In this document: one piece after another, positions 7,562 through 47,640 of the stretch
Layout of the letters: each line of letters starts with the position of its first letter
How positions within the stretch are numbered: position 1 is the stretch's first letter
Assembly: GCA_965248925.1 (NCBI GenBank)
Contig: CBDFLE010000006.1
Coordinates: forward strand, 1,664,001 to 1,728,000
Direction of reading: 5' to 3'
DNA from: Candidatus Multivoradales bacterium
GTDB lineage: Bacteria; Acidobacteriota; Thermoanaerobaculia; Multivoradales; J023
DNA: 64,000 nucleotides
Notes under the pieces: generated by a model
What the model was told of the DNA's origin: nothing
What the model saw: only the letters and a program-made list of their open reading frames with translations
Databases searched by the model: none
Translations under genes and position numbers: made by a program

Positions 7562-10807
<3,246 letters not shown>

Positions 10808-27494: not shown

Positions 27495-27688
27495 TTCAGC
27501 CTCCGCTTTCGACCCTAGTTGCAGTCAAGAATCCTTCGCCTCGCTTGGCTGGGCACCTCTCCTGGCCCCATCCAACACCGCCAGCCGTGACCCGGATCGA
27601 CCAGCTCTTGCACCCTAGCCCTACTTATTCTACGCCCAATCGGGAGCCCCGGCAAAGAACCCAATCTCCGCCTGCTACCATCGCGCCA

Positions 27689-33253: not shown

Positions 33254-33604
33254 GGCAGTTCAGGAGCAACGGCACAAGAGCTACCGCCTACCTAGCTTTA
33301 GTTTCTGGCGTTGTTGAAGGAGAAAGAGCAAGGCCATCATTACCAGCGCCAAGTGATGGTGCCAAGCCTTCCAACTGCGGGCCTGGTAGTCGGCAATCCC
33401 ACCGCCAGACCATGTCTCGCATCACGTTCAGGTGCCCACTCCCGCTGCCACGCCGACTCCGGCCGTTGTGCCAACCAAACATCCACTCCCTTGCGCCTTT
33501 GCGGCACTCTAAACGCAGCCGTCGGGGCTAGGAGAGGAAGGCCAGCCCTTCTGATAAGATGGGTGACGTATCCGGAGAGCTTTCGAATTCAGGGGAGGAG
33601 CACT

Positions 33605-34264
33605 ATGGGACTCGACCGAGACCACGCCTTGCTCGCGGAGGCCTCGCAGACCAGCTTGGCGAAGACTCGGCGGGACCAGATTGAGGTCAACCGCAAACTC
33701 AAAATTTCTGGTACACATGGAAGACCACCTCTTCGAACTGGGCTTGAATGTCAAACAGTTGCGACTAGCCTGCGGCATCCACGATCCTTCGGTGACCACT
33801 GAATTTCGGCGCGAGTTGGTTCTGAGTCTGAAGGTCTACCTGGACGATCGGCGCATGGAGCCTGCCGCTTTCCTACTGCGTCGCTAAGATTTGCGGGTGC
33901 GCAAGATTGGCGAGCTATTGGGCTACTCCCGCCTGTCGACCTTTCATGCCACCTTCGAACGACGCTTCAGCGTGACGCCGCGGAAGTATCGCCGGCAAAA
34001 ACACCAGGAAGCCCCGCCGGTAGAGGAGCGGAACGATGAGCATCTCTCCCTCCCCTTCTGGCGCCGAGCACTGCTCGGCGAAGCGGACCCGAAGAAGGTC
34101 GCACGCTTGCATCGGGTTCTACAAGAACGCTGCCCCGATATTTTCCTTTCAGCCAGCGACACCGAGTCGCCCGCCTATAGTCGTCCCTGGAAGGTGGTGG
34201 TGGATGGGCGTGAGTTTGAGCGCATCAAGGCCGACTAGACCTGGCGTCAGCTCCAAGACTTGAC
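33605..34264 (+). pseudogene. AraC-family HTH regulator remnant truncated by an IS
   Basis: RRMEPAAFLLRR*DLRVRKIGELLGYSRLSTFHATFERRFSVTPRKYR; in-frame stops at 33885 and 34236; probable 5' frameshift. Confidence 0.75.
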
Positions 34265-35084
34265 CCCTCCGTGCCAATGTAAGTGAGACACTCAAGTAAC
34301 GAGAAATTAGTGAGGGCGTGGAGAGCAAACACCATGGCGAGTCCAAGCCACGAGCTGCGAGATATGAGCGCTGACCGACCAGATCCCGAGGTAACTGAGA
34401 AGGCGAAGCGGCGGCGGTACAGCGCTTCGTACAAGCTGGGCATCGTCCAGGCCGCCGACGCCTGTAGCAAGCCCGGCGAGATTGGCGCCCTGCTTCGCCG
34501 GGAGGGTCTGTATTCCTCACTCCTATCGAAGTGGCGTCAGCAACGCGATGCCAGTGCTCTGGCCGGTTTGTCGAAGAAGCGCGGTCGCAAGCATCGACCG
34601 AAATCTGCTGAGGCCCGCCGCGTCGCGGAGCTGGAGCGTGAGAATGCTCGGCTCAAGCATCAGCTGTACAAAGCCGAGACGATGTATCGAGTCCTGGAGT
34701 CTGAGGGCGAGCTGCGCGAGCGACGCCGTCAGCGGCGCCATCCCAACTACACCAAGCCCGAGCTGTTGGCCACCGGGCCGAACGAGGTGTGGTCGTGGGA
34801 TATCAGCAAGCTCAAAGGCCCGGTGAAGTGGACCTATTACTATCTTCACCTGATCCTGGATGTCTTCAGCCGCTACATCGTCGGCTGGATGCTCGCCGAC
34901 AGTGTTGAGAGGCAAGGTGTTGAGCGAGATCGACTTACCTTGCACTCGGACCGCGGTTCGAGCATGACATCCAAGCCAGTGGCCCTACTACTGGCCGATC
35001 TCGGGATGACACGGTCGCTGAACCGGCCCTACACGAGCAACGACAATCCGTTCTCTGAGGCCCAGTTCAAGACGCTCAAGTACC
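34265..35084 (+). mobile_element. Degenerate IS3-family copy (two internal deletions, 3' truncated)
   Basis: Nearly identical to 45671-46867 but lacks the orfA end/orfB start and CRESGGLAKRLIA; similarity stops after AAGTACC. Confidence 0.88.
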
Positions 35085-35128: not shown

Positions 35129-37528
35129 ATGTTGAACGATCTCTTGGTCGCCGCACGGCGGCTCCGCCACCGTCCGCGGTTTTGCTTTGCAGTCGTTTCC
35201 ATGCTCGCCCTGGTGATCGCCCTCGGTACGCTGGTGGTCGCCTGGGCCAGAGGCATGATTCTCGCGCCGCTGAACTTCGACGATCCCGGACGGCTCGTGC
35301 GCGTCTTTGGCACCGAACGCAACACGGATCGATCACGGTTGCGGTTGTCCCAAGCAACTATCATGGCCATTCGCGATGACGCTGGCGCTTTTGTGGTGTC
35401 GGGCTCCGCCCGCAACATGGGTCTGGCAATTACCGAGCTGGATCGTCCGACCAATCCGCTGATGCGAGAGGTTTCCAGGGGTTGGTTCGAAACCCTGGGC
35501 GTGCGAACCCTTCTCGGTCGCACGTTCGACGATGCTGATCACTTCCAGTGTAAGCGGGTGGTGGTTCTCAAACACAGCTTCTGGCGTAGCTACTACGGCG
35601 GCGATCCTCAGGTAATCGGTAAGAGCATCGAGCTCGCCGAAGACCCCTATGTGATCATCGGCGTTCTCGGGCCGGAATTCCGGAACCCCATCTTCCCGCT
35701 CTTGCCTGCGCTTTGGCTTCCCCTTTCTGAAGCTGGTCCCCATCCAGAAGCCCCTGAGAACTTCGTCTTCATCGGAAGGATGGGCAGGGACACCAATCTG
35801 GCCACCGCCAGCCACGCGCTCAGCCGGCTGGCTACCAATCTCGAGAACCGGTATCCCCAAAGTCATGCCGGACGGAGCCTCGAGGCGATCCCCTTGGAGG
35901 AGTCTGTGGTTGAGGCCTTCCGCCCGGCACTGGCACCCTTGCTGGGAGCTTCCCTGTTGATCCTCTTGATCGCCTTCAGCAACGTGGGTAACCTGTGGAT
36001 GACCCGCGCCACGGATCTCCGCCAGGAAGCTGCGGTCCGCTTTGCGCTGGGTGCCCAGCGCTTCCGCCTCTTGCGGATGGCCCTGGCCGAATCCCTGCTG
36101 CTTTGCACCCTGTCGGCAGCCATCGGCCTCGGGGTTGCAGCCGTTGCGCTCGAGCCTTTGAAACGCCTGGCTCCTCTCAGCCAGACCGTGCCCTTGCTCG
36201 ACCAGGTTCGACTGGATGCACTCTCGATCGGTACCGGCCTTGCCATCGCGGCCACCGGTGCGATTCTCCTTGCCCTGCTAGCCCTAGGCGCCCTTTCTGA
36301 CCGGCAGGAAGGCCTTGGCGGCCGGTCTCATCGCCAGTTGCAAAGCACGCGAGGCTTCGCCCAAGGCTGTCTCGTGGTTTCCGAGATTGCGCTCTCCATG
36401 ATCCTGATCTTCGCCGCCGGCCTGACCATACAGGCACTCGCGGATCTGCGCCGATTGGACCTCGGTTTCGAACCGATCTCGGCAATTGGCGGGCGTACCG
36501 GCGCACGCGGACCGAAATTCGAGGACGCCGAAGGGATTGCCAGGTTTCACCAGCGGATTCTCGAAACACTCGTCGGCCTGCCCGGGGTGAGCGCGGCGGG
36601 ATCGTGCGAGATCCTTCCGATGTTTGCCAAGGGCTTCGGTACCGCCACTCGCCTCGGCACAGGACGGTCGGACGGGCCCCGCGAGACCTGGCCCGCAGCG
36701 TCAACCCTACGGGCCACGCCAGGATTCTTCGCGGCATTCGGAACCGGGCTCGTACGAGGTCGCGGTTTCCAACGGACCGACGTCGCCGGCGGGCAGCAGG
36801 TCGCGATCCTCACCCGGTCCCTGGCGCGAGTCCTTTGGGGGGATTCGGATCCCCTCGGGCAAAGCGTGATCGCAGACCAAGGTGGTCAACGCAAGTCGCT
36901 AACAGTGGTGGGTATCGTCGACGATCAGCGGGGCCTGCCGGAAGACCCGATCCCGCAGCCTTTGCTCTTCGTGCCGCACGCCCAGGATCCGACCACCTAC
37001 ATGTCGTTCGTTTTACGGGTCGATGGCCCATTCCCCAGCATCGCTGCGATCGAAGACGTGATCTGGACCGTCAGCGCTGAAGCCCCCGTATACAGCGTTG
37101 CGACGCTATCGCAGCTGCTTCGAGATCTGGAATGGCGACCGCGGATGCTGACCCAGATGCTGGCGGTAGTCGGACTTCTCGCGCTGATCCTGGCCATGAC
37201 CGGGGTTGCTTCTGTGCTGGCGTACCAAGTCGCCGAATCGAGAGCCGAAATCGCTGTTCGAATGGCGATCGGCGCCAATCGCGCCCAGGTTCTACTCGCT
37301 GTCTTGACACGAATCACACACCTAGTGACCCTAGGGCTTATCCTGGGAATCTTCGCTGCGGTCGCGGGGGGGCGTTTTCTCGCCAGCTGCCTTCACGGCG
37401 TCCCATCCTTCGACTGGCGGATCTTTCTGGCCTCCGGGGCTCTGCTGACCGTGACCGCGATGATATCCGGTTTAATCCCCGCCCGCCGAGCGACCTTGAT
37501 CGATCCCGCAAGAGCGCTCAGGCGCTAG
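35129..37528 (+). CDS. MacB/FtsX-type ABC permease (ADOP-like duplicated permease)
   Basis: Two MacB-PCD + FtsX halves: EAAVRFALGA, EIAVRMAIGA, IPARRATLIDPARALR; no ATPase gene adjacent. Confidence 0.88.
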   Translation: MLNDLLVAARRLRHRPRFCFAVVSMLALVIALGTLVVAWARGMILAPLNFDDPGRLVRVFGTERNTDRSRLRLSQATIMAIRDDAGAFVVSGSARNMGLAITELDRPTNPLMREVSRGWFETLGVRTLLGRTFDDADHFQCKRVVVLKHSFWRSYYGGDPQVIGKSIELAEDPYVIIGVLGPEFRNPIFPLLPALWLPLSEAGPHPEAPENFVFIGRMGRDTNLATASHALSRLATNLENRYPQSHAGRSLEAIPLEESVVEAFRPALAPLLGASLLILLIAFSNVGNLWMTRATDLRQEAAVRFALGAQRFRLLRMALAESLLLCTLSAAIGLGVAAVALEPLKRLAPLSQTVPLLDQVRLDALSIGTGLAIAATGAILLALLALGALSDRQEGLGGRSHRQLQSTRGFAQGCLVVSEIALSMILIFAAGLTIQALADLRRLDLGFEPISAIGGRTGARGPKFEDAEGIARFHQRILETLVGLPGVSAAGSCEILPMFAKGFGTATRLGTGRSDGPRETWPAASTLRATPGFFAAFGTGLVRGRGFQRTDVAGGQQVAILTRSLARVLWGDSDPLGQSVIADQGGQRKSLTVVGIVDDQRGLPEDPIPQPLLFVPHAQDPTTYMSFVLRVDGPFPSIAAIEDVIWTVSAEAPVYSVATLSQLLRDLEWRPRMLTQMLAVVGLLALILAMTGVASVLAYQVAESRAEIAVRMAIGANRAQVLLAVLTRITHLVTLGLILGIFAAVAGGRFLASCLHGVPSFDWRIFLASGALLTVTAMISGLIPARRATLIDPARALRR

Positions 37529-37543
37529 CTATAGCTAGCTCAT

Positions 37544-37975
37544 TCACTCGTCCCAGCCGAAAGTCTGAAACCAATCCCCACCCTCGAGAAAGCTGATCGA
37601 GCGAGCAACGTAAGGCACCGTCGGTCGTGGCAGGTCATCGAACGGCGCCCATCGAAGATCGTCGCACTTGTGGGGCTCACAATTCGAAATCACCCCGCTC
37701 CAGCGATCGATAGAGGCGAAGAAGTCAATGCGCTCCTCGCCGTATAGTCGATGCATGACTCCGACCATTTGCAGATCCTTCTCTTGGATCTCAACACCGA
37801 CCTCCTCTCGCGATTCGCGGACAGCTGCCGCCAAGACCGTCTCCCCGCCATCGATATGGCCGGCGACCACGGAATACTTCCCGTCCTCGAAGCCGGTGTT
37901 GTACCGGCGGAGCATCAGTACCTCTCGATCTCGGACAAAGAAGATGTGAATCGCCACTGGCACCTGGAATCGCAT
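37544..37975 (-). CDS. NUDIX hydrolase
   Basis: Nudix box GHIDGGETVLAAAVRESREEVGV; NCEPHKC. Confidence 0.92.
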   Translation of the reverse strand: MRFQVPVAIHIFFVRDREVLMLRRYNTGFEDGKYSVVAGHIDGGETVLAAAVRESREEVGVEIQEKDLQMVGVMHRLYGEERIDFFASIDRWSGVISNCEPHKCDDLRWAPFDDLPRPTVPYVARSISFLEGGDWFQTFGWDE

Positions 37976-38069
37976 GTTCGCTACCCGTCGCTACTTGAGA
38001 AAATGGTTCGCATTGTGAATTCCCTTACGAAGGCATCGTTTTGCAACTCGCCGGCGCGCTGACGCCGCT

Positions 38070-40385
38070 TCAACCCGCTGCTGCCTCAGTCGGACCATTG
38101 ATCAGCTCCCACACACTAGAGCGCTCATTCCACCGGTCGAGTGCCCGGGCGAGTTGCCGATCCTTGCTGTCGCGGAGCTTGCCTGTCGCCAATCGATGGC
38201 TCAAGACTTGGTTCTCCTCGCACACCCAATCTTCGAAGAACGAAAGGCAGGCGAACAACGTACTGATTCGGCGGGAACTGGAGCGGTTCGGCCCCCGGCT
38301 CCGCAGGCGCTCGAGCTCCAAACTGAGCCCTCTTTCGACGGATCCCGTAGGCTGCGCCTCGACCGAGGTAGATACATCTAAAACGAAGATGATGGCCTTG
38401 ATCAGCTCCAAGCTGATCTTCCGATAGGCAACCATCCAGGAGAGGAGATCGCGCCGCTCAGCATCGCTAGCAACCTTGTAGAGGCTCTTAGTTGTGTAGG
38501 CAAGTCCAAAATTCCGATCGATCCAACGTTGGGAGAATTCGCTGATATCCCCGATTCGTTCATCGAGGTACCTGACCCGTTGTCGGCCCATGTTGACGTC
38601 CGGAACCCCGTCATCCAGGAACAAGCGCAGTCCGTACTTTCGTTCCGCACCTTCCACCATCCTCGCGTAGGGACTGTCAATCAGCACCTCCAGGCTCGCC
38701 AGCATGTATGAGACGCTCGAATGAATCGGCTTGTCCGCTTTGTTCTCTTCGACAAAGTCCCGGTCCCGGCAAAGCTTGTCGAAGAGATCGGCATAGCCGA
38801 TCTCTTCGACATCCAAAGGTTTCATGAAAGCATCTGTGCGCTCGAGAAAACGAATGTTCTCTCTCAGGTCCTCGAAGCTCGCCATCAGCGGGTCGAAGGT
38901 GATGAATCCAAAGCGGAGCGGAATCCCCAGCGCGCTGAGAATGCGAATGGCGCGCACGCTGTCCTCCGGCTTGATCCCCTTCCCCAATCGGCGCAGCTGC
39001 GACTCACTGCCCGATTCCAGACCCATGAAGAGTCGATCGAGCCCGGCCTGCCTGCTCAGATGCCACATTTCCACACGGCCGAGGTGCCATTGAGTGTCCA
39101 TCCGGGGGGAGAAGACTTGATCGACTCTTGCCGCAGCGTCGAACTTCATCCCCATCTCCGCCGCCAGAAGCCCACGGGCCATTCCTGTGATGCGGGCGGT
39201 TTCGCGACCGCCGTCGATTCCGCCGACAAACTCCTCGTCAGCCAAGAAGACATGCTTGCGAACACCGAAGTGTTCTGCTGCACGCTTCAGGAGCGCGAAT
39301 TGCGAGACGATCTGATCGGGGGCGAATGTCTTCCAGTCCGCGGCCTTGTGGTGACGCGGGCAGAAAGTGCACTTGTTCCACTGGCAACCTCGGCTCAGCT
39401 CGAGGGTCAGGGCGCCCCGTTGGTCGGCGATCGCGGGCAGAGTATCCAGGGCCGGGAGCGGAATCGTCGACACGTCGACGGGCCGCTGGGGATTTCGCCG
39501 CGTCTCCCTGCTCGAGCCAGAGCGATAGGCCAGTCCTGGAATCTCGGAGCGTTGACAACGGCCTTGCAGCGAATCGACGAGCAGGGCGATCGAATGCTCA
39601 CCTTCACCGGTGGCGACCACGAGATTGTCGTAGCGATCGAGGAACAGATCGGGCCAGGAAGCCGGAATGATATTGCCCAACACAAAGGTGGTACCCCGGA
39701 GAGAGTCATCGACGTGCCTATAGAGATCCTGGAGAATTGTCTCGGCGATGCTTTTCTGCCCGTACGAAATCGATATCCCGATCAAGTCGGGTCGGAGCTG
39801 AACCGCTGTGTCGGTAATTTCATCTACAGTCGTGCCCACCTGCATGTCGCAGATGCGCACGTCAGCTTTCTGCAAGAGACGCAAGTGGCTGGCCAGCAAG
39901 CCGATGCTGAGGCAGAGCCTCGGAATCGGAAAATTCTCCAGGACACACGGATTGACCAGGAGCACCTTTGGCAGCTGCAGCCGGTCGACCAAGGCTTGAC
40001 TCCGCGGTATCAATGCCACGCCCACGAGATCTGGAACCGGCGACGGGCTGATCCCCAGCTCGCTCAGTAGCGGATTCGATTCGATCGTCGTCCCGGGACA
40101 AATTAGCAGGATGCCGTCGGACCCGAGCAGGTAGAAGCTCAGGTTGGACGTTTCGCCCGAGACAACCAGGTTAACCCGCTCGGGGCCGCCGGTCTCTTCC
40201 AGAACGGACGCGAGGCGCCGGACCATTTCATGAGGAGGCTGCCAGAATTCCTGCACGATCTCTTCGACCATCAAACGCAGACGCGGGCCGGCCAGCGCCT
40301 CGACGCGGCCATCTCGTCTCTTGATTTCGAACATCGATGCACCTCCAGGGGACTCGATAGGCTTGGGTGTTTCACGGGTTGCCAT
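38070..40385 (-). CDS. oxsB: Cobalamin-dependent radical SAM enzyme, OxsB/AlsB-like (oxetane nucleoside ring contraction)
   Basis: CX4CX2C in RGALTLELSRGCQWNKCTFCPR. Segments VSGET, ENFPIPRL, DMQVGTT, ADEEF, FLERTDA.MKP.D, SYMLAS.E, NMGR, WID.NFG..YT.KSL.KVA and W.LIN match my recollection of B. megaterium OxsB end to end; not verified by search. Confidence 0.85.
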   Translation of the reverse strand: MATRETPKPIESPGGASMFEIKRRDGRVEALAGPRLRLMVEEIVQEFWQPPHEMVRRLASVLEETGGPERVNLVVSGETSNLSFYLLGSDGILLICPGTTIESNPLLSELGISPSPVPDLVGVALIPRSQALVDRLQLPKVLLVNPCVLENFPIPRLCLSIGLLASHLRLLQKADVRICDMQVGTTVDEITDTAVQLRPDLIGISISYGQKSIAETILQDLYRHVDDSLRGTTFVLGNIIPASWPDLFLDRYDNLVVATGEGEHSIALLVDSLQGRCQRSEIPGLAYRSGSSRETRRNPQRPVDVSTIPLPALDTLPAIADQRGALTLELSRGCQWNKCTFCPRHHKAADWKTFAPDQIVSQFALLKRAAEHFGVRKHVFLADEEFVGGIDGGRETARITGMARGLLAAEMGMKFDAAARVDQVFSPRMDTQWHLGRVEMWHLSRQAGLDRLFMGLESGSESQLRRLGKGIKPEDSVRAIRILSALGIPLRFGFITFDPLMASFEDLRENIRFLERTDAFMKPLDVEEIGYADLFDKLCRDRDFVEENKADKPIHSSVSYMLASLEVLIDSPYARMVEGAERKYGLRLFLDDGVPDVNMGRQRVRYLDERIGDISEFSQRWIDRNFGLAYTTKSLYKVASDAERRDLLSWMVAYRKISLELIKAIIFVLDVSTSVEAQPTGSVERGLSLELERLRSRGPNRSSSRRISTLFACLSFFEDWVCEENQVLSHRLATGKLRDSKDRQLARALDRWNERSSVWELINGPTEAAAG

Positions 40386-40417
40386 GGGAAGGGCTCGGGG
40401 ACTGGAGGCCTAGTAAG

Positions 40418-41578
40418 TCAGTGGAACCAGCCATTAGCGGCTTCGGTATCGAGGGAGTTGCGGCCGCAATCCTGATAGAACGGAACAAAATCGTATTTCT
40501 GATACACCGCTTGGAGATGCTTTCCCATGGCCCGCAGGTCTTCGAGCGATGCCCGCGGGTGATCCGCCAGCCGGACACCCGGATCCGGATGAAAGACGTT
40601 GATCACCGGCGCGACACCCCGCTCGGCCACGTAGTCGAGGCCCTCGGCCAAGGAGTCGACCGGCTCGAGCCCGCCGACGAAAATCGTGTAGATATTGCCC
40701 GCGCCGAGAATCTCGGCCGCCCGCACTTGGGCTTCGATGGCTTTCTCGCGTCCATAGAGATCGTGCTTGCCCGGTGCGATGACCGGGAACAGCGACGGCG
40801 AGAAAACCTCGAGGTTCATCGCCACCTTGACCGGTAACCCCTTCAATTCCGCGAGCAGCTCCAGGTTGTCGGGGGGCATGGTGATCAAGTGCACCTCCAC
40901 CTCGTCTTGGCGGTCCAACTCGTTCACCACCTCTGCCACGCGCCGAACCGTTTCGAGATGGCGGCGGAAACCCATATCGTTGTTTCGGCGATTGCCACCA
41001 TTGAGCATGACCTGACGGATCAGGTCCGGGTCTTGCTCCAGCGCGATCCTCGTCATCTCCGCCGAGTCGTCCGCCTTGATATCCAGGAGATGATCCCCAT
41101 AGATCGACCGGGTCGGCTCGAGGGAACAAAAACCGCATTGTTTCCCTACTGAGAAGTAGTAACAAGTCCCGAGAGCGAAGATGCCCAACGAGCCGCCGCC
41201 GTAGAGCGTTCCAACTTCCCGACAAGGTGTACCGTCTGCGAATGAGGCTTCGTAGAATCTCGGTCGCTTCGGAAAGGTGATAGGAGTGATCGGCTCGCCG
41301 TGCTCCAGCAAGAAATACTCGAGACCGTCCGCCGCCAGCTGATAGGGCGAATTCTCGACAACGTGAATCGGAGCGATTACCTGCGGCAACAAGATCTCCT
41401 GCGGAATCCGCGCCTGAAAGTGCAAAGCGTCGCTGGCACCGTAGGCCCAGCGCTTTTCAATGAACTCGGGCCGGTAGGATTCGAGGAATCCCGGAGCGAA
41501 GCTAATACCGTTTGACAAGATACGTAGCTTGATATCGGTCAGCTCCGCTGGGGAAAGCTCGGTCGATAGGGTCGTCAT
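40418..41578 (-). CDS. Radical SAM protein (CX8CX2C), possible AlsA counterpart
   Basis: GTCYYFSVGKQCGFCSL, NLEVF, APGK, GGLEP; RBS AGGAG before ATG 41578; alternative coupled start at 41695. Confidence 0.8.
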   Translation of the reverse strand: MTTLSTELSPAELTDIKLRILSNGISFAPGFLESYRPEFIEKRWAYGASDALHFQARIPQEILLPQVIAPIHVVENSPYQLAADGLEYFLLEHGEPITPITFPKRPRFYEASFADGTPCREVGTLYGGGSLGIFALGTCYYFSVGKQCGFCSLEPTRSIYGDHLLDIKADDSAEMTRIALEQDPDLIRQVMLNGGNRRNNDMGFRRHLETVRRVAEVVNELDRQDEVEVHLITMPPDNLELLAELKGLPVKVAMNLEVFSPSLFPVIAPGKHDLYGREKAIEAQVRAAEILGAGNIYTIFVGGLEPVDSLAEGLDYVAERGVAPVINVFHPDPGVRLADHPRASLEDLRAMGKHLQAVYQKYDFVPFYQDCGRNSLDTEAANGWFH

Positions 41579-41691
41579 TCCATCTCCTACTTCAACTGGT
41601 TCGTTGCGTTCGTCCGAGGAGCCGTGTTGGTCGAATCGGCCACATCTGGCGGTCAGTAACAGCACCCCGCTGGTTTCGGTAAACAGCGTCG

Positions 41692-42780
41692 TCATCGGCC
41701 ATCCGCAAGCGCTCCGATGGCTGCCGCCGTGGTTGCGCCCGCGTTCACATCTACCCCTGGAGGCAGGTCCAGGCCGAGTATTGAAAGTTCGTCTGCTTTG
41801 AGCGGAGGAAGGTCGTGATACTCCAGTCGCCCCGCATAGGGGCAGCCGAAGTATCGCGCTGTAGTCATGATCTCGTGAAAACTGTGCGCTTTGATCGACA
41901 TCAAATAACCCAAGACCGCGACCCGAACTCTCAACAGCGAGCTCATCCGGAGGATTCGAGCAAACTGCAGGTACTGCATAGTGACGCCCGACAAGCCGGT
42001 GGCCAGCGGCATCGCCGCTGCATTGGAAGCGCGGACGAAAGCGTCCGCTGGATTGGGGCGCCACTGCCGCCGCGGATCCATCCACGGTACGAGGTCGTTA
42101 CCCAACGGATTCATCAACTTGCGTTCACGGCTATCGAATCGGCCGCCTTCCGCGACAAAGTCGGAGCGGGACTGCAGCGACCAGATCATCTCTTCCGCGT
42201 CCGTGGGGCACGCCTGCCGGGAGTTCTCCTGCTGTCGACGGAGGGGGTGCCAGAGCATCTTCCCGAAGTCTTCGTAAGGATCCAGACTCGCGAGTCGAAT
42301 GCTCTGGTGTCGTGAAATCTCGCTCTTTCGTCGCAGCGCCTGATCGAGCATCGAGCGCAACAGCTGGATGTCGTAACCAGCGTCCGCTGCGAGCTTCAAT
42401 CCATCGGCGAGGCGGTCGGGGCCGGCAAGGTCTTCGAAAAGAAGCCTGCAAACGAAGAGCCAGAGGTGTGCCATCGATTCGCGAAGGTTCCCTCGGCCCG
42501 CGAAGACGCAACGCAGCTCCGCTTCGCCGTCCCCGACTCGACCGGCGAAATGGCTTTCGAGCGGAGAAGCACAGCGTCGCATCAGCGCGTAGCGGGATTC
42601 TGCGGCGCGACGCCTGCCGAGAGCCCGGGCCCGGATCTCGATATACCGATTCGCCGCCTGCAGCATGTCTCCCGCCGATCTCGAAGCGATCGGGTGATCG
42701 GCCAGCGCATGCCCCAGACCACGTTCGAACCGTTCCCGAGCCGCCAACGTAGTCTCGGGCCATTGCCCTTTGCCCGTCAT
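41692..42780 (-). CDS. Hypothetical protein with an SG...HxxxE motif (LnaB-like S-HxxxE nucleotidyltransferase candidate)
   Basis: PLATGLSGVT, then AHSFHEI with the His 35 residues after the Ser; ATGA-coupled to the upstream HIT-like gene. Confidence 0.5.
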   Translation of the reverse strand: MTGKGQWPETTLAARERFERGLGHALADHPIASRSAGDMLQAANRYIEIRARALGRRRAAESRYALMRRCASPLESHFAGRVGDGEAELRCVFAGRGNLRESMAHLWLFVCRLLFEDLAGPDRLADGLKLAADAGYDIQLLRSMLDQALRRKSEISRHQSIRLASLDPYEDFGKMLWHPLRRQQENSRQACPTDAEEMIWSLQSRSDFVAEGGRFDSRERKLMNPLGNDLVPWMDPRRQWRPNPADAFVRASNAAAMPLATGLSGVTMQYLQFARILRMSSLLRVRVAVLGYLMSIKAHSFHEIMTTARYFGCPYAGRLEYHDLPPLKADELSILGLDLPPGVDVNAGATTAAAIGALADGR

Positions 42781-43826
42781 GCGACTGTGACTTTCGACAG
42801 CTCGTTCTTAGAAGGGAACAGACGAGACAACGAGCGGCCATGCGGATCGTCGATTGCCGCCCGCACCGCCTCGTCAGCCACCGCGTCGAGCCACGGTGCA
42901 ACCTCGGGAACATAGGAAAGCAACCTGCCCGCGACGCCGGGCGCCGCCATCCAAAGCGTGCCCCTCTCGCCCAATTCGACGGTTGTCGTCCCGCGATGTC
43001 TGGGTACGAAAACAGCGCTCGTGAGAAGGCCTGCAGGAGGGAAAATCAACATGTTCCACAAACCGGGATTGCCGGCTCGACTGTCATGAAACGCGACCAG
43101 CTTTGCCAAACTTCGAGCGACCGCTGAGTCCCGACCTTCCAAGAAAAGGCCCGACAGAGGACCCAAGCGATAGCTCGCGACCTCGATCCCTTCTCCAGAA
43201 AAGACACATCTCAGCTCGGATCGACGCGCGCGAAGCGCCGCTTGCAAGGGCAGCTCGGCACGCATAATCTGCCAATGCCAATGATCCTGGCTATTGCTGA
43301 CAGTACCGTTGAAGAAAGCTACCAATGGCCGATCCGACTGAGCGGCTCGGGTCAAAGCAATCATGTCGGCAATCTCGGACTCGGACAGCCATGCCTGTTC
43401 ACGGTGTTCGGGGGTCACCACGGTGAATTGGACACCGTCTTGACCTTCGTAGGGTTTCGGATGGGGCGGGATCTCGTATCGCCGCCAGGCCAGTCTCCGC
43501 TCCTGAGCCAACGGCGGGTTGCACATTACACAAGTCCGCAGGCCCCGGCTCGGCAGCCGAGGAACATCGAGATTCGGTACGTTCTCTCCGAGGTGCTCGT
43601 TCCAGTGAGTGTAGTTCCATGATTCGAGCAACCCCGAGGTACCGAGGTGGGTCAGGAGCTTGGCGGAAGGCAAGTCCGCGGCGAAGAAGGGAAGCGAGCG
43701 ATGGTAGTCGGCTAGGATGCCCAGCGCCGCCGCCAGCTCCTTGTCAGACACGCGTACAATCGGTTGCTGGTCGAGAGATCCGAATGACTTCGTCTCTCCC
43801 CCAACCTCTACCTCCCAGCTATTCAT
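42777..43826 (-). CDS. HIT/GalT-superfamily nucleotidyl phosphorylase/transferase (DUF4922, GDP-sugar or Ap4A phosphorylase-like)
   Basis: CVMC, HPKPY, FTVVTPEHREQ, FFNG, SQDHWHWQ (HxHxQ). Confidence 0.7.
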   Translation of the reverse strand: MNSWEVEVGGETKSFGSLDQQPIVRVSDKELAAALGILADYHRSLPFFAADLPSAKLLTHLGTSGLLESWNYTHWNEHLGENVPNLDVPRLPSRGLRTCVMCNPPLAQERRLAWRRYEIPPHPKPYEGQDGVQFTVVTPEHREQAWLSESEIADMIALTRAAQSDRPLVAFFNGTVSNSQDHWHWQIMRAELPLQAALRARRSELRCVFSGEGIEVASYRLGPLSGLFLEGRDSAVARSLAKLVAFHDSRAGNPGLWNMLIFPPAGLLTSAVFVPRHRGTTTVELGERGTLWMAAPGVAGRLLSYVPEVAPWLDAVADEAVRAAIDDPHGRSLSRLFPSKNELSKVTVA

Positions 43827-43977
43827 TATCTGCTATTCACTAACTAAGATATTCACTCAAGATGAGCTAATCGGAAGCAATCATGCAGCACCGATATGAG
43901 AGTCTACGCTAGAAGACCTCGGGGCTCAAGGGGTCCCGATCCCGACCACCCTCCTGACTCCCCGCGAGCTGCCGTCT

Positions 43978-45312
43978 ATGGAAACACCCAACAGGCTGGT
44001 AACCCTCCCGATCCCAGTGGCAATCTGGCGGTCTTCTCTACCCCTGCTATTCGGGCTCTTGACCGTGGCCAGCATCCCATTGGTCGACAGCGTCTACGTC
44101 TCGCACTACTCGACTCGAGCCTTCAACTCCCTTGCCATGGCCTTGCCGATCATGACGCTCGTTAGCGCCTTCGCTTCGTCGTTGGCCGCCGCCGCAGGCA
44201 ACGCATACGCAAGGGCCAGTAGACCTGAGAGAGGGAATCTTGAATTCACCTCAGCGGTCACCCTCGCCCTCACCAGTGGGCTGGTCTTGGTGGCAGTCGC
44301 CCTGTTCGGCACTAGCTCGATACTCGCGTGGTATCGCCTCGATTCATCGTCGGAGCTTGCTAGGGGTTTCTCGGCGTATTGGCGATGGATCCTTCCTACC
44401 CTTCCCCTCTACCTGCTTTTCGGCTGCCTGCTGCAAACCCTGGTGGCGAGGGGCGAAACTGCCCGCGCCAATCGGTCCGTTGCCGTTTTGGCCGCGGTCA
44501 ACTTCGCCATCGACCCAGTTCTGATCTTCGGGCTCGACCTCGGAATCACCGGTGCGGCGATCGCCGCGGATATTGCCTATCTGGCCGCGAACCTAGCGGC
44601 GATTCGAGGGCTTCGCGCGATTCCCGGGCTGACCCTCCAGCCGCTGAGTCTCCGACGACTCGGCAAGCCGATATGGCGACAACTGCGTACCGGATTCTTC
44701 ATCGCCGCCGGAACCAGCGCGTTTCTGGTCAGCGACTTTCTTTTTCGCCGCATGGCAGCGCTCGAAGGGCCCGAGGCGATCACCGCCATCGGGATCGCCG
44801 ATCAGCTCGCGCTGGTCTTCATCCAGGTGACCCGAGGGATTGCCGCAGGGATAATCCCGGTGGCCGGGGCCTACTTGGCGCTGAATCGGTGGGGTCGGCT
44901 GGTCATGATCTACTGGAGCGGCACCAGTCTCGTCGGAATCTTTTACGCCGTCGCCGGCCTGCTCTTGATCGGAGCGCCCGCTCTCGCGCTCGGCTTCTTC
45001 GACATTTCCAGGGAAGCCGCGACTGCAGACCAAGTCATATTCTTGCAAGTGACCGGCGCCACCCTATTGATCAACGTACCGGCAAGACTGCTGCCGCCAT
45101 GCGCCGTGGCACTCGGTCGCCCCCAGGTGGGAACCTTCTACAGCGTCACTGCCGTGGCAACTTGCTATCTCCTCGCTGTCTGGCTCGTACCGGAGTACTC
45201 CTATGTCGGCATCGCTTGGGGCCGATTCTTCGGTTTCCTGCTGGTCAACATCGCGGGTATCCCCTATCTCTTTTCCTTGATGAAGGCCGAGCCGAAGCGT
45301 CAGCCGCGCTGA
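43978..45312 (+). CDS. MATE-family efflux transporter
   Basis: 444 aa, about 12 TM segments, SLPL...LVDSVYVSH, NFAIDPVLIFGLDLGITGAAIA. Confidence 0.85.
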   Translation: METPNRLVTLPIPVAIWRSSLPLLFGLLTVASIPLVDSVYVSHYSTRAFNSLAMALPIMTLVSAFASSLAAAAGNAYARASRPERGNLEFTSAVTLALTSGLVLVAVALFGTSSILAWYRLDSSSELARGFSAYWRWILPTLPLYLLFGCLLQTLVARGETARANRSVAVLAAVNFAIDPVLIFGLDLGITGAAIAADIAYLAANLAAIRGLRAIPGLTLQPLSLRRLGKPIWRQLRTGFFIAAGTSAFLVSDFLFRRMAALEGPEAITAIGIADQLALVFIQVTRGIAAGIIPVAGAYLALNRWGRLVMIYWSGTSLVGIFYAVAGLLLIGAPALALGFFDISREAATADQVIFLQVTGATLLINVPARLLPPCAVALGRPQVGTFYSVTAVATCYLLAVWLVPEYSYVGIAWGRFFGFLLVNIAGIPYLFSLMKAEPKRQPR

Positions 45313-45670: not shown

Positions 45671-45739
45671 CCCTCTGTGCCAATGTAGGTGAGACACTCC
45701 CGTACCGATAAATTAGTGAGGGCGTGGAGAGCAAACACC

Positions 45740-46153
45740 ATGGCGAGTCCAAGCCACGAGCTGCGAGATATGAGTGCTGACCGACCAGATCCCGAGGTAA
45801 CTGAGAAGGCGAAGCGGCGGCGGTACAGCGCGTCGTACAAGCTGAGCATCGTCCAGGCCGCCGACGCCTGTAGCAAAGCCGGCGAGATTGGCGCCCTGCT
45901 TCGCCGGGAGGGTCTGTATTCCTCACTCCTATCGAAGTGGCGCCAGCAACGCGATGCCAGTGCTCTGGCCGGTCTGTCGAAGAAGCGCGGTCGCAAGCGT
46001 CGACCGGTCTCTGCCGAGGCCCGCCGCGTCGCGGAGCTTGAGCGTGAGAATGCCCGGCTCAAGCATCAGCTGTACAAAGCCGAGACGATCATCGATGTCC
46101 AAAAAAAACTTTCCCGGCTGCTAGGGATCGAGCCGAGCGAGAGCCAGCCATGA
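45740..46153 (+). CDS. IS3-family OrfA (HTH)
   Basis: KRRRYSASYKL, GALLRREGLYSSLLSKWR; A8 slippery run at 46101-46108 with an open -1 frame into OrfB. Confidence 0.88.
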   Translation: MASPSHELRDMSADRPDPEVTEKAKRRRYSASYKLSIVQAADACSKAGEIGALLRREGLYSSLLSKWRQQRDASALAGLSKKRGRKRRPVSAEARRVAELERENARLKHQLYKAETIIDVQKKLSRLLGIEPSESQP

Positions 46154-47271
46154 GCGCTGTGGCGCCGCTGGCCGAGACGGTGGGGGTGCAAGCAGCCTGC
46201 GTCGCCTTGGCGGTCCCCAGAGCCACTTTCTATCGCCGCCGTCGGCAGCAGAGCGCAGGGCCGCAGCTATCAACGCGGCCTCGACCGCCGCTGGCATTGA
46301 CGCCCGCTGAACGCCAGGAGGTCCTCGATGTGTTGCACTCGGAGCGCTTCGTCGACCGCTCGCCGCGTCAAGTCTGGGCGGCGCTGCTGGACGAGGATCA
46401 GCGCCATATCTGCTCGGTGCGCACCATGTACCGGGTCCTGGAGTCTGAGGGCGAGCTGCGCGAGCGACGCCGTCAGCGGCGTCATCCCAACTACACCAAG
46501 CCCGAACTGCTGGCCACAGGGCCGAACGAGGTGTGGTCGTGGGACATCACCAAGCTCAAGGGCCCGGTGAAGTGGACCCACTACTACCTTTACGTAATTC
46601 TGGACGTCTTCAGCCGCTACATCGTCGGCTGGATGCTCGCCTGCCGCGAGTCCGGAGGGCTCGCGAAGCGGTTGATCGCCGACAGTGTTGAGAAGCAAGG
46701 TGTTGAGCGAGATCGACTTACCTTGCACTCGGACCGCGGTTCGAGCATGACATCCAAGCCAGTGGCTCTACTGCTGGCCGATCTCGGGATGACACGGTCG
46801 CTGAACCGGCCCTACACGAGCAACGACAATCCGTTCTCTGAGGCCCAGTTCAAGACGCTCAAGTACCATCCGAGCTTTCCCGACCGCTTCGGATCACTGG
46901 AAGATGCACGAGCATTCTGCCGCTCGTTCATCGGCTGGTACAACACGCAGCACTACCACACAGGACTCGGCTTGTTGACGCCAGAGACCGTCCACTACGG
47001 CCTCACGGCCTCAGTACTGGAGCAACGTCGAGAAGTCCTCGCCGCCGCCTCAGCCGCTCATCCAAGCCGCTTCAAGCGGCGAGCGCCGGCTTTGCCGGAG
47101 CCCAGTGACAAGGTCTGGATCAACCCGCCGACCACCGCCGCCAGCACTGACCCAGTCGATACCGAGAACGTAGTGACACACCGCGTACACAACGACGCAC
47201 CAGGCGAGACCCCTGGCTGCGCGCCCTCGCTGAAAGCGATGGTGCCGGAGCCACTACCGATTCCGTACTAA
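46150..47271 (+). CDS. IS3-family OrfB DDE transposase
   Basis: WSWDITKL, LDVFSRY, LHSDRG, NDNPFSEAQFKTLK. Confidence 0.93.
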   Translation: MSAVAPLAETVGVQAACVALAVPRATFYRRRRQQSAGPQLSTRPRPPLALTPAERQEVLDVLHSERFVDRSPRQVWAALLDEDQRHICSVRTMYRVLESEGELRERRRQRRHPNYTKPELLATGPNEVWSWDITKLKGPVKWTHYYLYVILDVFSRYIVGWMLACRESGGLAKRLIADSVEKQGVERDRLTLHSDRGSSMTSKPVALLLADLGMTRSLNRPYTSNDNPFSEAQFKTLKYHPSFPDRFGSLEDARAFCRSFIGWYNTQHYHTGLGLLTPETVHYGLTASVLEQRREVLAAASAAHPSRFKRRAPALPEPSDKVWINPPTTAASTDPVDTENVVTHRVHNDAPGETPGCAPSLKAMVPEPLPIPY

Positions 47272-47311
47272 TTCCCAGAAGAAAGTGTCTCACTTTCATT
47301 GACACATTCCG

Positions 47312-47640
47312 GAGCTGCGACAGGGGCAATCGCTATTGCGGCCCTAAGTGCGCTCGTCAGGCTCGCCTCAAGGCCCACCTTGAAGCGAATCGGCAGCACC
47401 AGGCAACCCACCGGGGGCGTAAATTACAGCGGGCACGCCAGGCTCACTACCGCGCGCGCCAGCGTCGCGTGACGGATCACAGTGACAGCTCAATGGACAA
47501 GACGGTGTCCAAGCTACCCCAAGCGCCGAGCAGCTGTCTTGCCACGCAGTTCGGTTGGACCCAAAAGGGCGTGTTTTGTGTGAACGTCGCTTTTCTTACC
47601 CTACCCGTCCAGTCTTCAGGCGACCTTTTGCTGGTCGGCG
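47312..47640 (+). pseudogene. 3' fragment of the Cys-rich gene
   Basis: SCDRGNRYCGPKCARQAR...YRARQRRVTDH; abuts repeat copy 2. Confidence 0.6.

What the first reader, a model, noticed from the sequence alone, without database searches (positions are those of the whole stretch)
35129..45312. Candidate new oxetane-nucleoside/nucleotide pathway: OxsB-like enzyme, second radical SAM, HIT phosphorylase, S-HxxxE protein, NUDIX and two transporters
Seen: a five-gene minus-strand run (HxHxQ HIT-like > SG...HxxxE protein > CX8CX2C radical SAM > B12-radical SAM > NUDIX) with overlapping or short junctions, a divergent MATE exporter and a convergent ABC permease, all inside an IS-bearing island. Established: OxsB (oxetanocin A, Bacillus megaterium) and AlsB (albucidin, Streptomyces) ring-contract deoxyadenosine nucleotides to oxetanes. 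Oxetanocin uses the HD phosphohydrolase OxsA; albucidin uses a second radical SAM enzyme, AlsA. Inference: there is no HD-domain OxsA here, but three predicted nucleotide-phosphate-handling enzymes. The product could be an albucidin-like nucleoside with new tailoring, a nucleotidylated/dinucleotide pro-drug, or an intracellular chain-terminating antiviral nucleotide (viperin-like logic). I know of no described cluster with this composition.
Basis: partly seen in the sequence, partly recalled or inferred. Interest (0 to 1): 0.93.

Follow-up and report, generated by a model that had tools for sequence, protein, structure and literature searches.

The report
Albucidin-type oxetane nucleoside gene cluster
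This island carries close relatives of the two radical-SAM enzymes that make the oxetane nucleoside herbicide albucidin, joined to a NUDIX hydrolase, an exporter and two genes found beside no other such cluster examined, so it is probably a new variant of a rare known pathway.

Summary
Five intact minus-strand genes lie at 37544-43826, with a divergent MATE gene and a convergent permease, on an island flanked by IS copies and a duplication.

The B12-radical SAM protein is a full-length OxsB homologue (PDB 5UL2, E 2e-174). The CX8CX2C radical SAM protein is a homologue of AlsA (41% identity, E 4e-94, to the gene directly upstream of AlsB in the albucidin producer). The core is therefore the known albucidin-type alsA/alsB pair, not a new pathway type.

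I compared 160 loci that hold an OxsB-like gene:
- 34 of 160 have an AlsA-like neighbour.
- 25 of 160 have a NUDIX match.
- 0 of 160 have the HIT-like gene, the helical ORFan, the permease or the MATE gene.

The HIT-like protein is a remote member of the DUF4922/Ap4A-phosphorylase branch, with its HxHxQ motif intact. The ORFan has one known homologue and no recognisable fold. The permease belongs to a large native gene family and is probably unrelated.

In a sample of the phylum, 1 of 401 genomes has the OxsB-like gene, which points to horizontal acquisition.

Verdict: a new variant of a known kind, of moderate interest. No product, activity or expression has been shown.

The parts
38070..40334 (-). 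OxsB/AlsB-type cobalamin-dependent radical SAM enzyme (754 aa; an alternative start at 40385 gives 771 aa)
   Evidence: PDB OxsB 5UL2: E 2.2e-174, residues 40-764 aligned to 17-740. PF04055 and PF02310 match. The cysteines C317/C322/C325 (CX4CX2C) are invariant in 26 of 26 aligned homologues. GGAGG lies upstream of 40334.
40418..41581 (-). AlsA-type variant radical SAM enzyme (387 aa; the open frame extends to 42085)
   Evidence: NF045502 variant_rSAM scores 246.8 bits against a cut-off of 125. It is 41% identical over 424 aa, E 3.6e-94, to the gene directly upstream of AlsB in S. albus subsp. chlorinus, L072. CX8CX2C is conserved in 32 of 32 family members. AGGAG lies before 41581.
37544..37975 (-). 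NUDIX hydrolase (143 aa) of a subfamily that recurs beside OxsB-like genes
   Evidence: PF00293 scores 68.9 bits. It is 39-58% identical to NUDIX genes next to OxsB-like genes, for example L005 and L006 at 58% and L147 at 45%. Its blastp cluster 10 covers 12 loci.
41692..42780 (-). ORFan of 362 aa, predicted all-helical, with conserved SG...HSxxE; function unknown
   Evidence: There is one homologue, P0060 (38% identity, E 2.4e-49), in 5.8 billion clusters. It has no Pfam, NCBIfam, PADLOC, PHROGs or PDB match. The AF2 model has pLDDT 40. Its start overlaps the HIT-like stop by 4 nt.
42777..43826 (-). HIT-superfamily protein of 349 aa with HxHxQ, a remote relative of DUF4922 / Ap4A phosphorylase / GDP-hexose phosphorylase
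   Evidence: There are 44 remote relatives, the best at 30% identity and E 5.5e-25. Of 31 aligned family members, 16 match PF16269 DUF4922. The family profile hits yeast Apa2, PDB 4I5T, at E 0.014 with the HxHxQ in register. The ESM Atlas top hits are DUF4922/GDPGP1 at 0.96. hhalign gives 91.7% to the HIT domain of cluster c44. The protein itself has no Pfam hit.
43827..43977 (.). Divergent intergenic region between the HIT-like and MATE genes, presumed to hold the promoters; contains the near-repeat GAGTGAATA / TAGTGAATA
   Evidence: Read directly from the sequence. The consensus scan found no sigma-70-like site here.
43978..45312 (+). MATE efflux transporter (444 aa), the probable exporter of the product
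   Evidence: PF01554 scores 40.1 bits. TIGR00797 scores 80.9 bits, under its cut-off. It is single-copy in the genome and divergent from the operon.
35129..37528 (+). ADOP-family duplicated MacB/FtsX permease; adjacent and convergent, and probably not part of the pathway
   Evidence: TIGR03434 scores 596 bits against a cut-off of 622. There are 33 tblastn matches in the same genome. It is the only part of the region with matches of more than 55 nt in related genomes.
34262..35084 (+). Degraded copy of the genome's abundant IS element
   Evidence: It is 86-94% identical to the full copy, with an internal deletion. It carries rve and HTH_Tnp_1 domains.
45671..47312 (+). Full copy of the IS element (about 1.64 kb, rve-type transposase)
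   Evidence: It carries rve, rve_3 and HTH_32 domains. The genome holds 25 near-full copies (at least 1596 bp, 96.9-100% identical), this one included.
31865..33253 (+). Left copy of a 1389-bp direct duplication (3' part of a sulfatase gene) that bounds the island
   Evidence: It is 99.64% identical to 47700-49088. Both copies carry the Sulfatase domain.
47700..49088 (+). Right copy of the same duplication

Best explanation
This is a horizontally acquired biosynthetic cluster for an albucidin-type oxetane nucleoside.

Inferred from homology to characterised enzymes:
- The OxsB/AlsB-like cobalamin radical SAM enzyme ring-contracts a 2'-deoxyadenosine nucleotide.
- The AlsA-like CX8CX2C radical SAM enzyme removes the one-carbon unit, giving phosphorylated albucidin or a close analogue.

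Inferred from family, synteny and position only:
- The NUDIX enzyme cuts pyrophosphate from di- or triphosphate forms. It either supplies 2'-dAMP from dATP or keeps the oxetane nucleotide out of the triphosphate pool. The second role is the one the HD enzyme OxsA plays for oxetanocin.
- The MATE pump exports the dephosphorylated product.
- The HxHxQ HIT-like enzyme, whose stop codon overlaps the start of the helical ORFan, most likely works through a nucleotidyl-histidine intermediate on a phosphoanhydride-linked form of the substrate or product. I rate self-protection or salvage as more likely than tailoring.
- The permease is probably a bystander.
For: - OxsB homology is full-length: E 2.2e-174.
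- AlsA homology: 41% identity over 424 aa, E 3.6e-94, to the gene abutting AlsB in the albucidin producer. NF045502 scores above its cut-off.
- CX8CX2C is present in 32 of 32 family members.
- The pair recurs: 34 of 160 OxsB-like loci have an AlsA-like neighbour.
- In a FastTree of 132 proteins, the window's protein sits in a 3-row clade (SH-like support 100) with L001, which has AlsA next door, and with L081, a short contig with no context.
- The review PMC13331322 states that AlsB and AlsA produce albucidin from 2'-dAMP with a non-specific phosphatase, and that OxsB and AlsB are interchangeable given the right substrate (passages read).
- The same NUDIX subfamily lies beside OxsB-like genes in both HD-type and AlsA-type loci.
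- Other HIT-family genes occur in the nearest AlsA-type clusters, L001 and L007, and in L062, L114 and L148.
- Relatives of the HIT-like protein are fused to calcineurin-like phosphoesterase and to cytidylate kinase.
- The MATE gene is single-copy and divergent.
- The genome has a cobalamin riboswitch, so it uses B12.
- All five ORFs are intact.
- Acquisition: 1 of 401 sampled genomes of the phylum has an OxsB-like gene at E <= 1e-30. IS copies and a duplication flank the island. The GC content is 0.597 against 0.6245 for the genome.
Against: - No product, activity or transcript is shown. No RNA run is on record.
- Identity to the characterised enzymes is only about 33-41%. On the tree the AlsA association is scattered (at least 9-12 changes), so the substrate and product could differ.
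- S. albus AlsB itself is not in that tree. My crude ORF picking lost it.
- The HIT-like gene and the ORFan co-occur with OxsB-like genes nowhere else (0 of 160), so their link to the pathway rests on the operon layout alone.
- The HIT-like protein matches no Pfam model itself, and the PDB hit is marginal (E 0.014).
- Neither protein could be folded with confidence (pLDDT 33 and 40).
- The genome lacks DUF2797. [quoted passage not shown]
- The GC deviation is only about 1.3 SD.
Confidence: 0.62

Rival explanations
1. The two radical SAM enzymes act on a different nucleotide or make a different, non-oxetane or differently trimmed product. On this reading the cluster is a functionally distinct branch of the OxsB/AlsA superfamily.
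For: Identity to OxsB and AlsB is only about 33-40% and to AlsA 41%. OxsB-like genes sit in many different neighbourhoods: AKR in 53 loci, EEP in 43, thymidylate-kinase-like in 34, formyltransferase in 18, HD in 15 and CYTH in 15. That spread suggests chemical diversity. The review says the way AlsA removes the carbon is unknown.
Against: OxsB and AlsB share about the same low similarity with each other (44% by the review), yet both make the same bicyclic intermediate. The AlsA-plus-OxsB-like pairing is exactly the albucidin arrangement.
Confidence: 0.15
2. It is an intracellular, viperin-like antiviral system. The oxetane nucleotide is kept inside the cell as a chain terminator against phage, and NUDIX and the HIT-like enzyme control its level.
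For: Oxetane nucleoside triphosphates are polymerase poisons (established knowledge, recalled). Kinases are frequent in AlsA-type loci (16 of 26 distinct loci). One relative of the HIT-like protein is fused to a TPR-S sensor domain. The NUDIX protein hits the PADLOC candidate PDC-S07 weakly, E 3e-8.
Against: The other four proteins have no PADLOC match. A dedicated MATE exporter is divergently placed. The characterised homologues make secreted compounds. Only 1 true OxsB-like gene was found in 2.9 million viral contigs, and it is of the actinomycete AKR/EEP type.
Confidence: 0.08
3. It is a silent or decaying passenger island. The genes are intact but not expressed, or they lack a required partner, so nothing is made in this organism.
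For: The island sits among IS copies, 25 of them in the genome. One flanking IS copy is degraded. No DUF2797 gene is present. No RNA data exist.
Against: All five ORFs and the MATE gene are full-length with no stops or frameshifts. Good Shine-Dalgarno sites precede the two radical SAM genes.
Confidence: 0.1

Closest known systems
[quoted passage not shown]
   Same: It has the same two-enzyme core: an AlsA-type variant radical SAM gene directly beside an OxsB-like B12-radical SAM gene (L072). It has no HD-domain OxsA (passages).
   Different: The gene order is the same (AlsA-like gene upstream of the OxsB-like gene). The window's B12 enzyme is nearer to OxsB-type proteins: the match to L072 covers only query residues 118-753 at 33-37% identity. 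S. albus has, nearby, a class II ribonucleotide reductase, a PPDK-like gene, DUF2797 and a nucleotidyltransferase-like gene. The window has none of these. It has instead NUDIX, the HxHxQ HIT-like gene, the ORFan and MATE.
Oxetanocin A cluster oxsA/oxsB of Bacillus megaterium (OxsB structure, PDB 5UL2-5UL4)
   Same: The B12-radical SAM enzyme aligns over all four domains at E 2e-174. The related Bacillota loci L003, L005 and L006 carry the same NUDIX subfamily at 47-58% identity.
   Different: There is no HD phosphohydrolase in the cluster. The genome's one YfbR-like gene lies about 760 kb away. No aldo-keto reductase is present. A second radical SAM gene is present.
Uncharacterised AlsA-type clusters in a Methanosarcina MAG (L001) and an Anaerolineales MAG (L007)
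   Same: These are the nearest relatives with genomic context: OxsB-like 46% and 40% identical, AlsA-like 50% and 57%. Both have the OxsB-AlsA pair plus a HIT-superfamily gene.
   Different: Their HIT genes are of the HxHxH type (c28, and the PEP-mobile-domain fusion c44), not HxHxQ. They carry DUF2797 and lack NUDIX. The window's HIT-like family aligns to c44 only at profile level (91.7%) and to c28 weakly (20.6%).
Ap4A phosphorylase / ATP adenylyltransferase (yeast Apa2), GDP-L-galactose phosphorylase and DUF4922 (GalT branch of the HIT superfamily)
   Same: It has the HxHxQ motif, an upstream CxxC and a conserved H...Q. The family profile hits Apa2 and DUF4922, and the ESM Atlas neighbours are of these families.
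   Different: The protein itself scores under every Pfam threshold. The best relative is 30% identical. No substrate is known for DUF4922. None of these families is known from a nucleoside antibiotic cluster; that statement is from recall and was not searched.

Membership tests
OxsB/AlsB-type cobalamin-dependent radical SAM ring-contraction enzymes | Full-length similarity to OxsB across the N-terminal, B12-binding, radical SAM and C-terminal helical domains | tested here: met
   phmmer against the PDB: 5UL2 at E 2.2e-174, query 40-764 aligned to chain 17-740. The next hit is a 450-aa chain named only as a radical SAM core domain protein (9CCB), at E 5e-14.
OxsB/AlsB-type cobalamin-dependent radical SAM ring-contraction enzymes | Radical SAM cluster cysteines and a B12-binding domain | tested here: met
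   C317/C322/C325 are invariant in 26 of 26 sequences. PF04055 scores 46 bits. PF02310 scores 31.0 bits, just under its cut-off of 32.1.
   The best NCBIfam methyltransferase model scores 63 bits against a cut-off of 360, compared with 585 bits to OxsB.
OxsB/AlsB-type cobalamin-dependent radical SAM ring-contraction enzymes | Ring contraction of a 2'-deoxyadenosine nucleotide | not testable with these tools
   This needs an enzyme assay.
AlsA-type variant radical SAM enzymes | Homology to AlsA of the albucidin producer and adjacency to the AlsB/OxsB homologue | tested here: met
   41% identity over 424 aa, E 3.6e-94, to L072 8304-9551, with AlsB at 10001 onward. In the window the two genes are 83 nt apart.
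AlsA-type variant radical SAM enzymes | CX8CX2C cluster motif and the NF045502 model | tested here: met
   C308/C317/C320 are present in 32 of 32 members. NF045502 scores 246.8 bits against a cut-off of 125.
Oxetanocin-type (OxsA/OxsB) cluster | HD-domain phosphohydrolase OxsA encoded beside OxsB | tested here: not met
   None of the seven proteins has an HD or YfbR-like domain. The HD cluster c7 is absent from the window's gene row. The genome's only YfbR-like match is at C6:2467383, and the cluster is at about C6:1.70 Mb.
HIT superfamily, GalT/Apa2/DUF4922 branch | HxHxQ nucleotidyl-histidine motif | tested here: met
   H182-W-H184-W-Q186 is present. H184 is invariant and H182 nearly invariant in the alignment of 31 family members.
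HIT superfamily, GalT/Apa2/DUF4922 branch | Significant match to a curated family model or a solved member | tested here: inconclusive
   The protein itself has no Pfam hit. Of 31 relatives, 16 match DUF4922, best E 2.2e-9. The profile against Apa2 (4I5T) gives E 0.014. hhalign to the HIT domain of c44 gives 91.7%. The structure model is unusable, pLDDT 33.
NUDIX hydrolases | NUDIX domain and an intact Nudix box | tested here: met
   PF00293 scores 68.9 bits against a cut-off of 21.1. GHIDGGETVLAAAVRESREEVGV can be read in the translation. That this fits the Nudix-box consensus is from recall.
Known anti-phage defence systems (PADLOC) | A match of the cluster's proteins to defence-system models | tested here: not met
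   Four of five proteins have no hit. The NUDIX protein hits the candidate PDC-S07 weakly, E 3.2e-8.

The most novel reading that the evidence does not exclude
The HxHxQ nucleotidyl-transfer enzyme and its overlapping helical ORFan convert the albucidin-type nucleotide into a new phosphate-linked conjugate, such as a dinucleoside polyphosphate or a nucleotidylated pro-drug. The ORFan would then be a new protein family that acts on oxetane nucleotides. This would give a third class of natural oxetane nucleoside, from a phylum not known for them.
Probability: 0.18. Interest if true: 0.8.

Novelty: new variant of a known kind. Interest (0 to 1): 0.52.

Why it matters
According to the 2025 review, only two natural oxetane nucleosides are known: oxetanocin A and albucidin. 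This cluster puts the albucidin-type enzyme pair in a distant phylum, with accessory genes not seen in either described cluster. It is therefore a concrete, small target (about 7.8 kb, six genes) for finding a new oxetane nucleoside, or a new way in which producers handle toxic nucleotides.

The survey made along the way is of wider use. OxsB-like genes occur in 202 candidate stretches across a collection of 185,579 species genomes. They fall into distinct neighbourhood types, all rich in nucleotide-phosphate enzymes and almost all uncharacterised.

Tried and rejected
- Structure prediction of the HIT-like protein (single sequence, pLDDT 32.7) and of the ORFan (two-row alignment, pLDDT 39.9) was too poor for fold searches, so none was run.
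- Complex prediction on the HIT-like protein plus the ORFan gave no answer, score 0.00.
- The ESM Atlas gave no usable hit for the ORFan.
- PDB searches found nothing meaningful for the ORFan alone, for its profile (best E 2.1), or for the HIT-like protein alone.
- PHROGs found nothing.
- A metagenome scan for the ORFan family matched 426 pattern stretches, none confirmed. The context of its only homologue, P0060, is therefore unknown. No OxsB-like hit lists a longest contig of P0060's length (7413 bp), which is weak evidence against co-location.
- hhalign of the ORFan against the 44 commonest neighbour families of OxsB-like genes gave under 20% for all of them, including DUF2797 at 0.3%. It is not a diverged copy of a known partner.
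- The look-up of sequencing runs listed no RNA holder. Four runs of one study hold the DNA, probably the source sample.
- The primary AlsA/AlsB papers, PMC9561071 and PMC12379298, are not held. Their content is taken only from the review.
- I considered a composite transposon and rejected it as unproven. The IS has 25 copies genome-wide, so two nearby copies are not special. The 1389-bp duplication fits single-crossover integration or a local duplication equally well.

Full report
OBSERVATION

- On the minus strand lie a 349-aa ORF with DHWHWQ (42777-43826), a 362-aa ORF (41692-42780), a variant radical SAM gene, a B12-radical SAM gene and a NUDIX gene (37544-37975).
- A MATE gene (43978-45312) diverges from the operon across 151 nt.
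- A MacB/FtsX 'ADOP' permease (35129-37528) converges on the NUDIX gene with a 15-nt gap.
- The HIT-like stop and the ORFan start share ATGA.

I revise two starts.
- The B12 enzyme most likely begins at 40334. GGAGG lies upstream, and this start gives the 754-aa form held in the protein collection.
- The variant radical SAM gene most likely begins at 41581. AGGAG lies upstream, and the resulting 387 aa fits a family norm of about 385-390 aa.

With these starts the other junctions are 110, 83 and 94 nt.

THE CORE ENZYMES

The B12-radical SAM protein matches the OxsB crystal-structure sequence (PDB 5UL2) at E 2.2e-174 over residues 40-764 against 17-740. The next PDB hit is at E 5e-14. All NCBIfam methyltransferase-type models score far below their cut-offs.

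The second radical SAM protein passes NCBIfam NF045502 'variant_rSAM' (246.8 bits against a cut-off of 125). [quoted passage not shown] That gene is AlsA/AlbA of the albucidin cluster (PMC7074753, passages read). In 32 family members the three cysteines of CX8CX2C are invariant.

What these enzymes do is taken from passages of the review PMC13331322:
- AlsB acts on 2'-dAMP and OxsB prefers 2'-dATP.
- Both form an unstable [2.1.0] bicyclic intermediate, and they are interchangeable given the right substrate.
- AlsA, by unknown radical chemistry, removes a one-carbon unit.
- A non-specific phosphatase finishes albucidin.
- OxsA is an HD phosphohydrolase that strips phosphates from oxetanocin triphosphate.

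I could not read the primary papers. Supplementary files were not consulted.

RELATED LOCI

A word-indexed search of 5.8 billion protein clusters found 57 OxsB-like proteins at E <= 1e-20. The best non-self hit is 51% identical.

With an alignment of 26 of these, I scanned two collections.
- The species-genome collection gave 202 confirmed relatives, of which the best 80 were kept.
- The metagenome collection gave 90 confirmed relatives, of which 80 were kept.

Some loci are the same DNA filed twice, for example L009 and L086, or L017 and L103.

tblastn of the window's seven proteins against all 160 loci (E <= 1e-4) gave:

| Query | Loci with a match (of 160) |
|---|---|
| OxsB-like | 160 |
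| AlsA-like | 34 (12 genome, 22 metagenome) |
| NUDIX | 25 |
| HIT-like | 0 |
| ORFan | 0 |
| Permease | 0 |
| MATE | 0 |

The trio of OxsB-like, AlsA-like and NUDIX recurs in L115, L117 and L147.

I then clustered crude ORF calls within 5 kb of each OxsB-like gene (1274 ORFs) and named the clusters by Pfam. The recurrent neighbours are:

| Neighbour family | Loci |
|---|---|
| Aldo-keto reductase | 53 |
| Endonuclease/exonuclease/phosphatase | 43 |
| Thymidylate-kinase-like | 34 |
| AlsA-like | 32 |
| Unnamed family c5 | 29 |
| Formyltransferase | 18 |
| YfbR-like HD (OxsA-type) | 15 |
| CYTH | 15 |
| PfkB kinase | 15 |
| The window's NUDIX subfamily | 12 |
| DUF2797 | 10 |
| A second NUDIX family | 8 |

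These counts are lower bounds. The greedy ORF picking loses genes in GC-rich DNA: it lost AlsB of L072, AlsA of L114 and the window's own ORFan.

The Bacillota loci L003, L005 and L006 read HD-OxsB-AKR-NUDIX. Their NUDIX proteins are 47-58% identical to the window's, which is higher than the 39-40% identity of the OxsB-like proteins themselves.

A FastTree of the 132 OxsB-like ORFs of at least 620 aa dropped 34 shorter rows, and S. albus AlsB is absent from it. It puts the window's protein in a 3-row clade (SH-like support 100) with L001 and the short contig L081. L001 is a Methanosarcina MAG whose gene row reads OxsB-AlsA-HIT-DUF2797. That clade sits inside a 27-row clade that also holds the HD-type Bacillota proteins. 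The AlsA association is scattered over the tree, needing 12 changes, at least 9 of them on starred branches.

THE TWO UNNAMED GENES

The HIT-like protein has no Pfam or NCBIfam hit and no relative in the word-indexed search. An exhaustive phmmer search of 1.84 billion representatives found 44 relatives at E <= 1e-3, the best at E 5.5e-25 and 30% identity. In an alignment of 31 family members:
- W114, R115, P125, Y126, Q144 and H184 are invariant.
- C99, C102, H141, H182 and W185 are nearly so.
- 16 of 31 members match PF16269 DUF4922.
- The profile hits yeast Ap4A phosphorylase Apa2 (4I5T) at E 0.014, with the histidine motif in register.
- The ESM Atlas neighbours are DUF4922 and GDP-hexose phosphorylase clusters at 0.96.

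Three longer relatives carry a calcineurin-like phosphoesterase domain (two of them) or a cytidylate kinase domain. A fourth carries a TPR-S domain.

Profile comparison with the neighbour families of OxsB-like genes gave 91.7% probability to cluster c44 and 20.6% to cluster c28.
- c44 is a fusion of a PEP-utilizer mobile domain with a HIT domain, found in L007, L114 and L148.
- c28 is a HIT/CwfJ-like family, found in L001, L007, L062 and L114.

So HIT-superfamily enzymes recur in AlsA-type clusters, but the window's is of another branch. No other locus examined combines a HIT gene with a NUDIX gene.

The ORFan has a single homologue, P0060 (38% identity, E 2.4e-49, from a 7.4-kb metagenome contig). 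The homologue conserves SG and HSxxE. The ORFan is predicted to be all-helical at low confidence. It matches nothing in Pfam, NCBIfam, PADLOC, PHROGs, the PDB or the ESM Atlas, and it matches none of the recurrent neighbour families. Its function is open.

THE ISLAND AND ITS ORIGIN

- A 1389-bp stretch, the 3' part of a sulfatase gene, is repeated at 99.64% identity at 31865-33253 and 47700-49088.
- Inside this frame lie a degraded IS copy (34262-35084), the permease, the cluster and a full IS copy (about 45671-47312).
- The IS has 25 near-full copies in the genome, so its presence alone says little.
- The five biosynthetic genes and the MATE gene are single-copy. The permease family gives 33 tblastn matches.
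- In 30 related genomes, DNA matches were at most 398 nt. All matches longer than 55 nt fall in the permease gene.
- An OxsB-like gene at E <= 1e-30 was found in 1 of 401 sampled genomes of the phylum, the window's own.
- The HIT-like family was found in 6 of 401 genomes. The other five score at most E 2.8e-14.
- The cluster's GC content is 0.597. The genome's is 0.6245, with an SD of 0.020 over 5-kb windows.

Together these results favour horizontal acquisition. The donor is unknown.

FEASIBILITY

- The genome has a cobalamin riboswitch.
- It has no DUF2797 gene (genome 96.9% complete).
- In S. albus, the gene order TMPK-like, PPDK-like, DUF2797, nucleotidyltransferase-like, one further ORF, AlsA, AlsB, RNR matches the paper's table. 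By inference, DUF2797 is therefore 'gene 12', whose deletion abolished albucidin production.

MECHANISM

Homology to characterised enzymes supports ring contraction followed by one-carbon excision on a 2'-deoxyadenosine nucleotide. Everything after that is inferred.
- NUDIX acts as a pyrophosphatase, either feeding dAMP or de-toxifying the oxetane di- and triphosphates.
- MATE exports the product.
- The HIT-like enzyme acts through a nucleotidyl-histidine intermediate on a phosphoanhydride-linked species, with the ORFan as partner or immunity factor.

I put the core reading at about 0.62. The rivals are:
- a different product, 0.15;
- a silent island, 0.10;
- a viperin-like defence system, 0.08. 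PADLOC gave only a weak NUDIX hit, and one true OxsB-like gene was found in viral contigs, of the actinomycete type.

NOVELTY

Two full-text searches found no paper that describes genome neighbourhoods of OxsB/AlsB homologues or a cluster of this composition.
- OxsB or albucidin, 55 papers, 25 listed.
- six terms, 20 of 402 papers listed.

The library lacks most subscription journals, so this is weak evidence of absence.

Noticed in passing
L003, L005, L006 (Nanhaiella, Shimazuella); also L087, L095: The Bacillota OxsB-type loci read HD-OxsB-aldo/keto reductase-NUDIX. The reductase could be the 'missing' aldehyde reductase of the oxetanocin pathway, which the papers say is not encoded in the B. 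megaterium cluster.
   Followed up: partly
L020-L080 (mostly actinomycete loci) and L178: The largest group of OxsB-like genes has no AlsA or HD neighbour. It has instead aldo/keto reductase (53 loci), EEP phosphatase (43), thymidylate-kinase-like (34), formyltransferase (18) and an unnamed family c5 (29). These look like uncharacterised nucleoside clusters.
   Followed up: partly
L072 5427-6551 (-), S. albus subsp. chlorinus: A DUF2797 gene lies where the paper's essential but unexplained 'gene 12' should be. DUF2797 recurs in 7 of 26 distinct AlsA-type loci (10 loci in all) but is not found in the window's genome.
   Followed up: partly
window 31865-33253 and 47700-49088: There is a 1389-bp direct duplication (99.64% identical) of the 3' part of a sulfatase gene. 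The two sulfatase ORFs differ in their N-termini (738 and 539 aa). This fits single-crossover integration or a local duplication.
   Followed up: partly
window 45671-47312 and 24 other places in the genome: A 1.64-kb rve-type IS element has 25 near-full copies at 96.9-100% identity, so it is recently active.
   Followed up: yes
window about 33301-33400: A repeat of about 94-100 nt is found at five other sites of the genome at 91-94% identity. It may be a small mobile or regulatory element.
   Followed up: no
window 27371-29774: Outside the island lie a nucleoside-phosphorylase-family gene with a 120-aa N-terminal extension and an overlapping TRZ/ATZ amidohydrolase. The latter's partial matches include a 5'-deoxyadenosine deaminase model, below its cut-off. 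This may be nucleoside salvage. No link to the cluster is shown.
   Followed up: partly
window 43840-43875 (minus-strand reading): In the AT-richer HIT-like/MATE intergenic region there is a near-repeat, GAGTGAATA ... TAGTGAATA. It may be an operator.
   Followed up: no
P0066, P0088, P0090, P0097: Relatives of the HIT-like protein occur fused to calcineurin-like phosphoesterase, cytidylate kinase or a TPR-S sensor domain. This suggests a wider uncharacterised family that processes nucleotides.
   Followed up: partly
L015-L017, L098-L103 (Ktedonobacteria-type loci): There is a conserved row AlsA-OxsB-PfkB kinase-NUDIX (second family)-STAND NB-ARC/TPR protein. It is another distinct AlsA-type cluster class.
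   Followed up: partly
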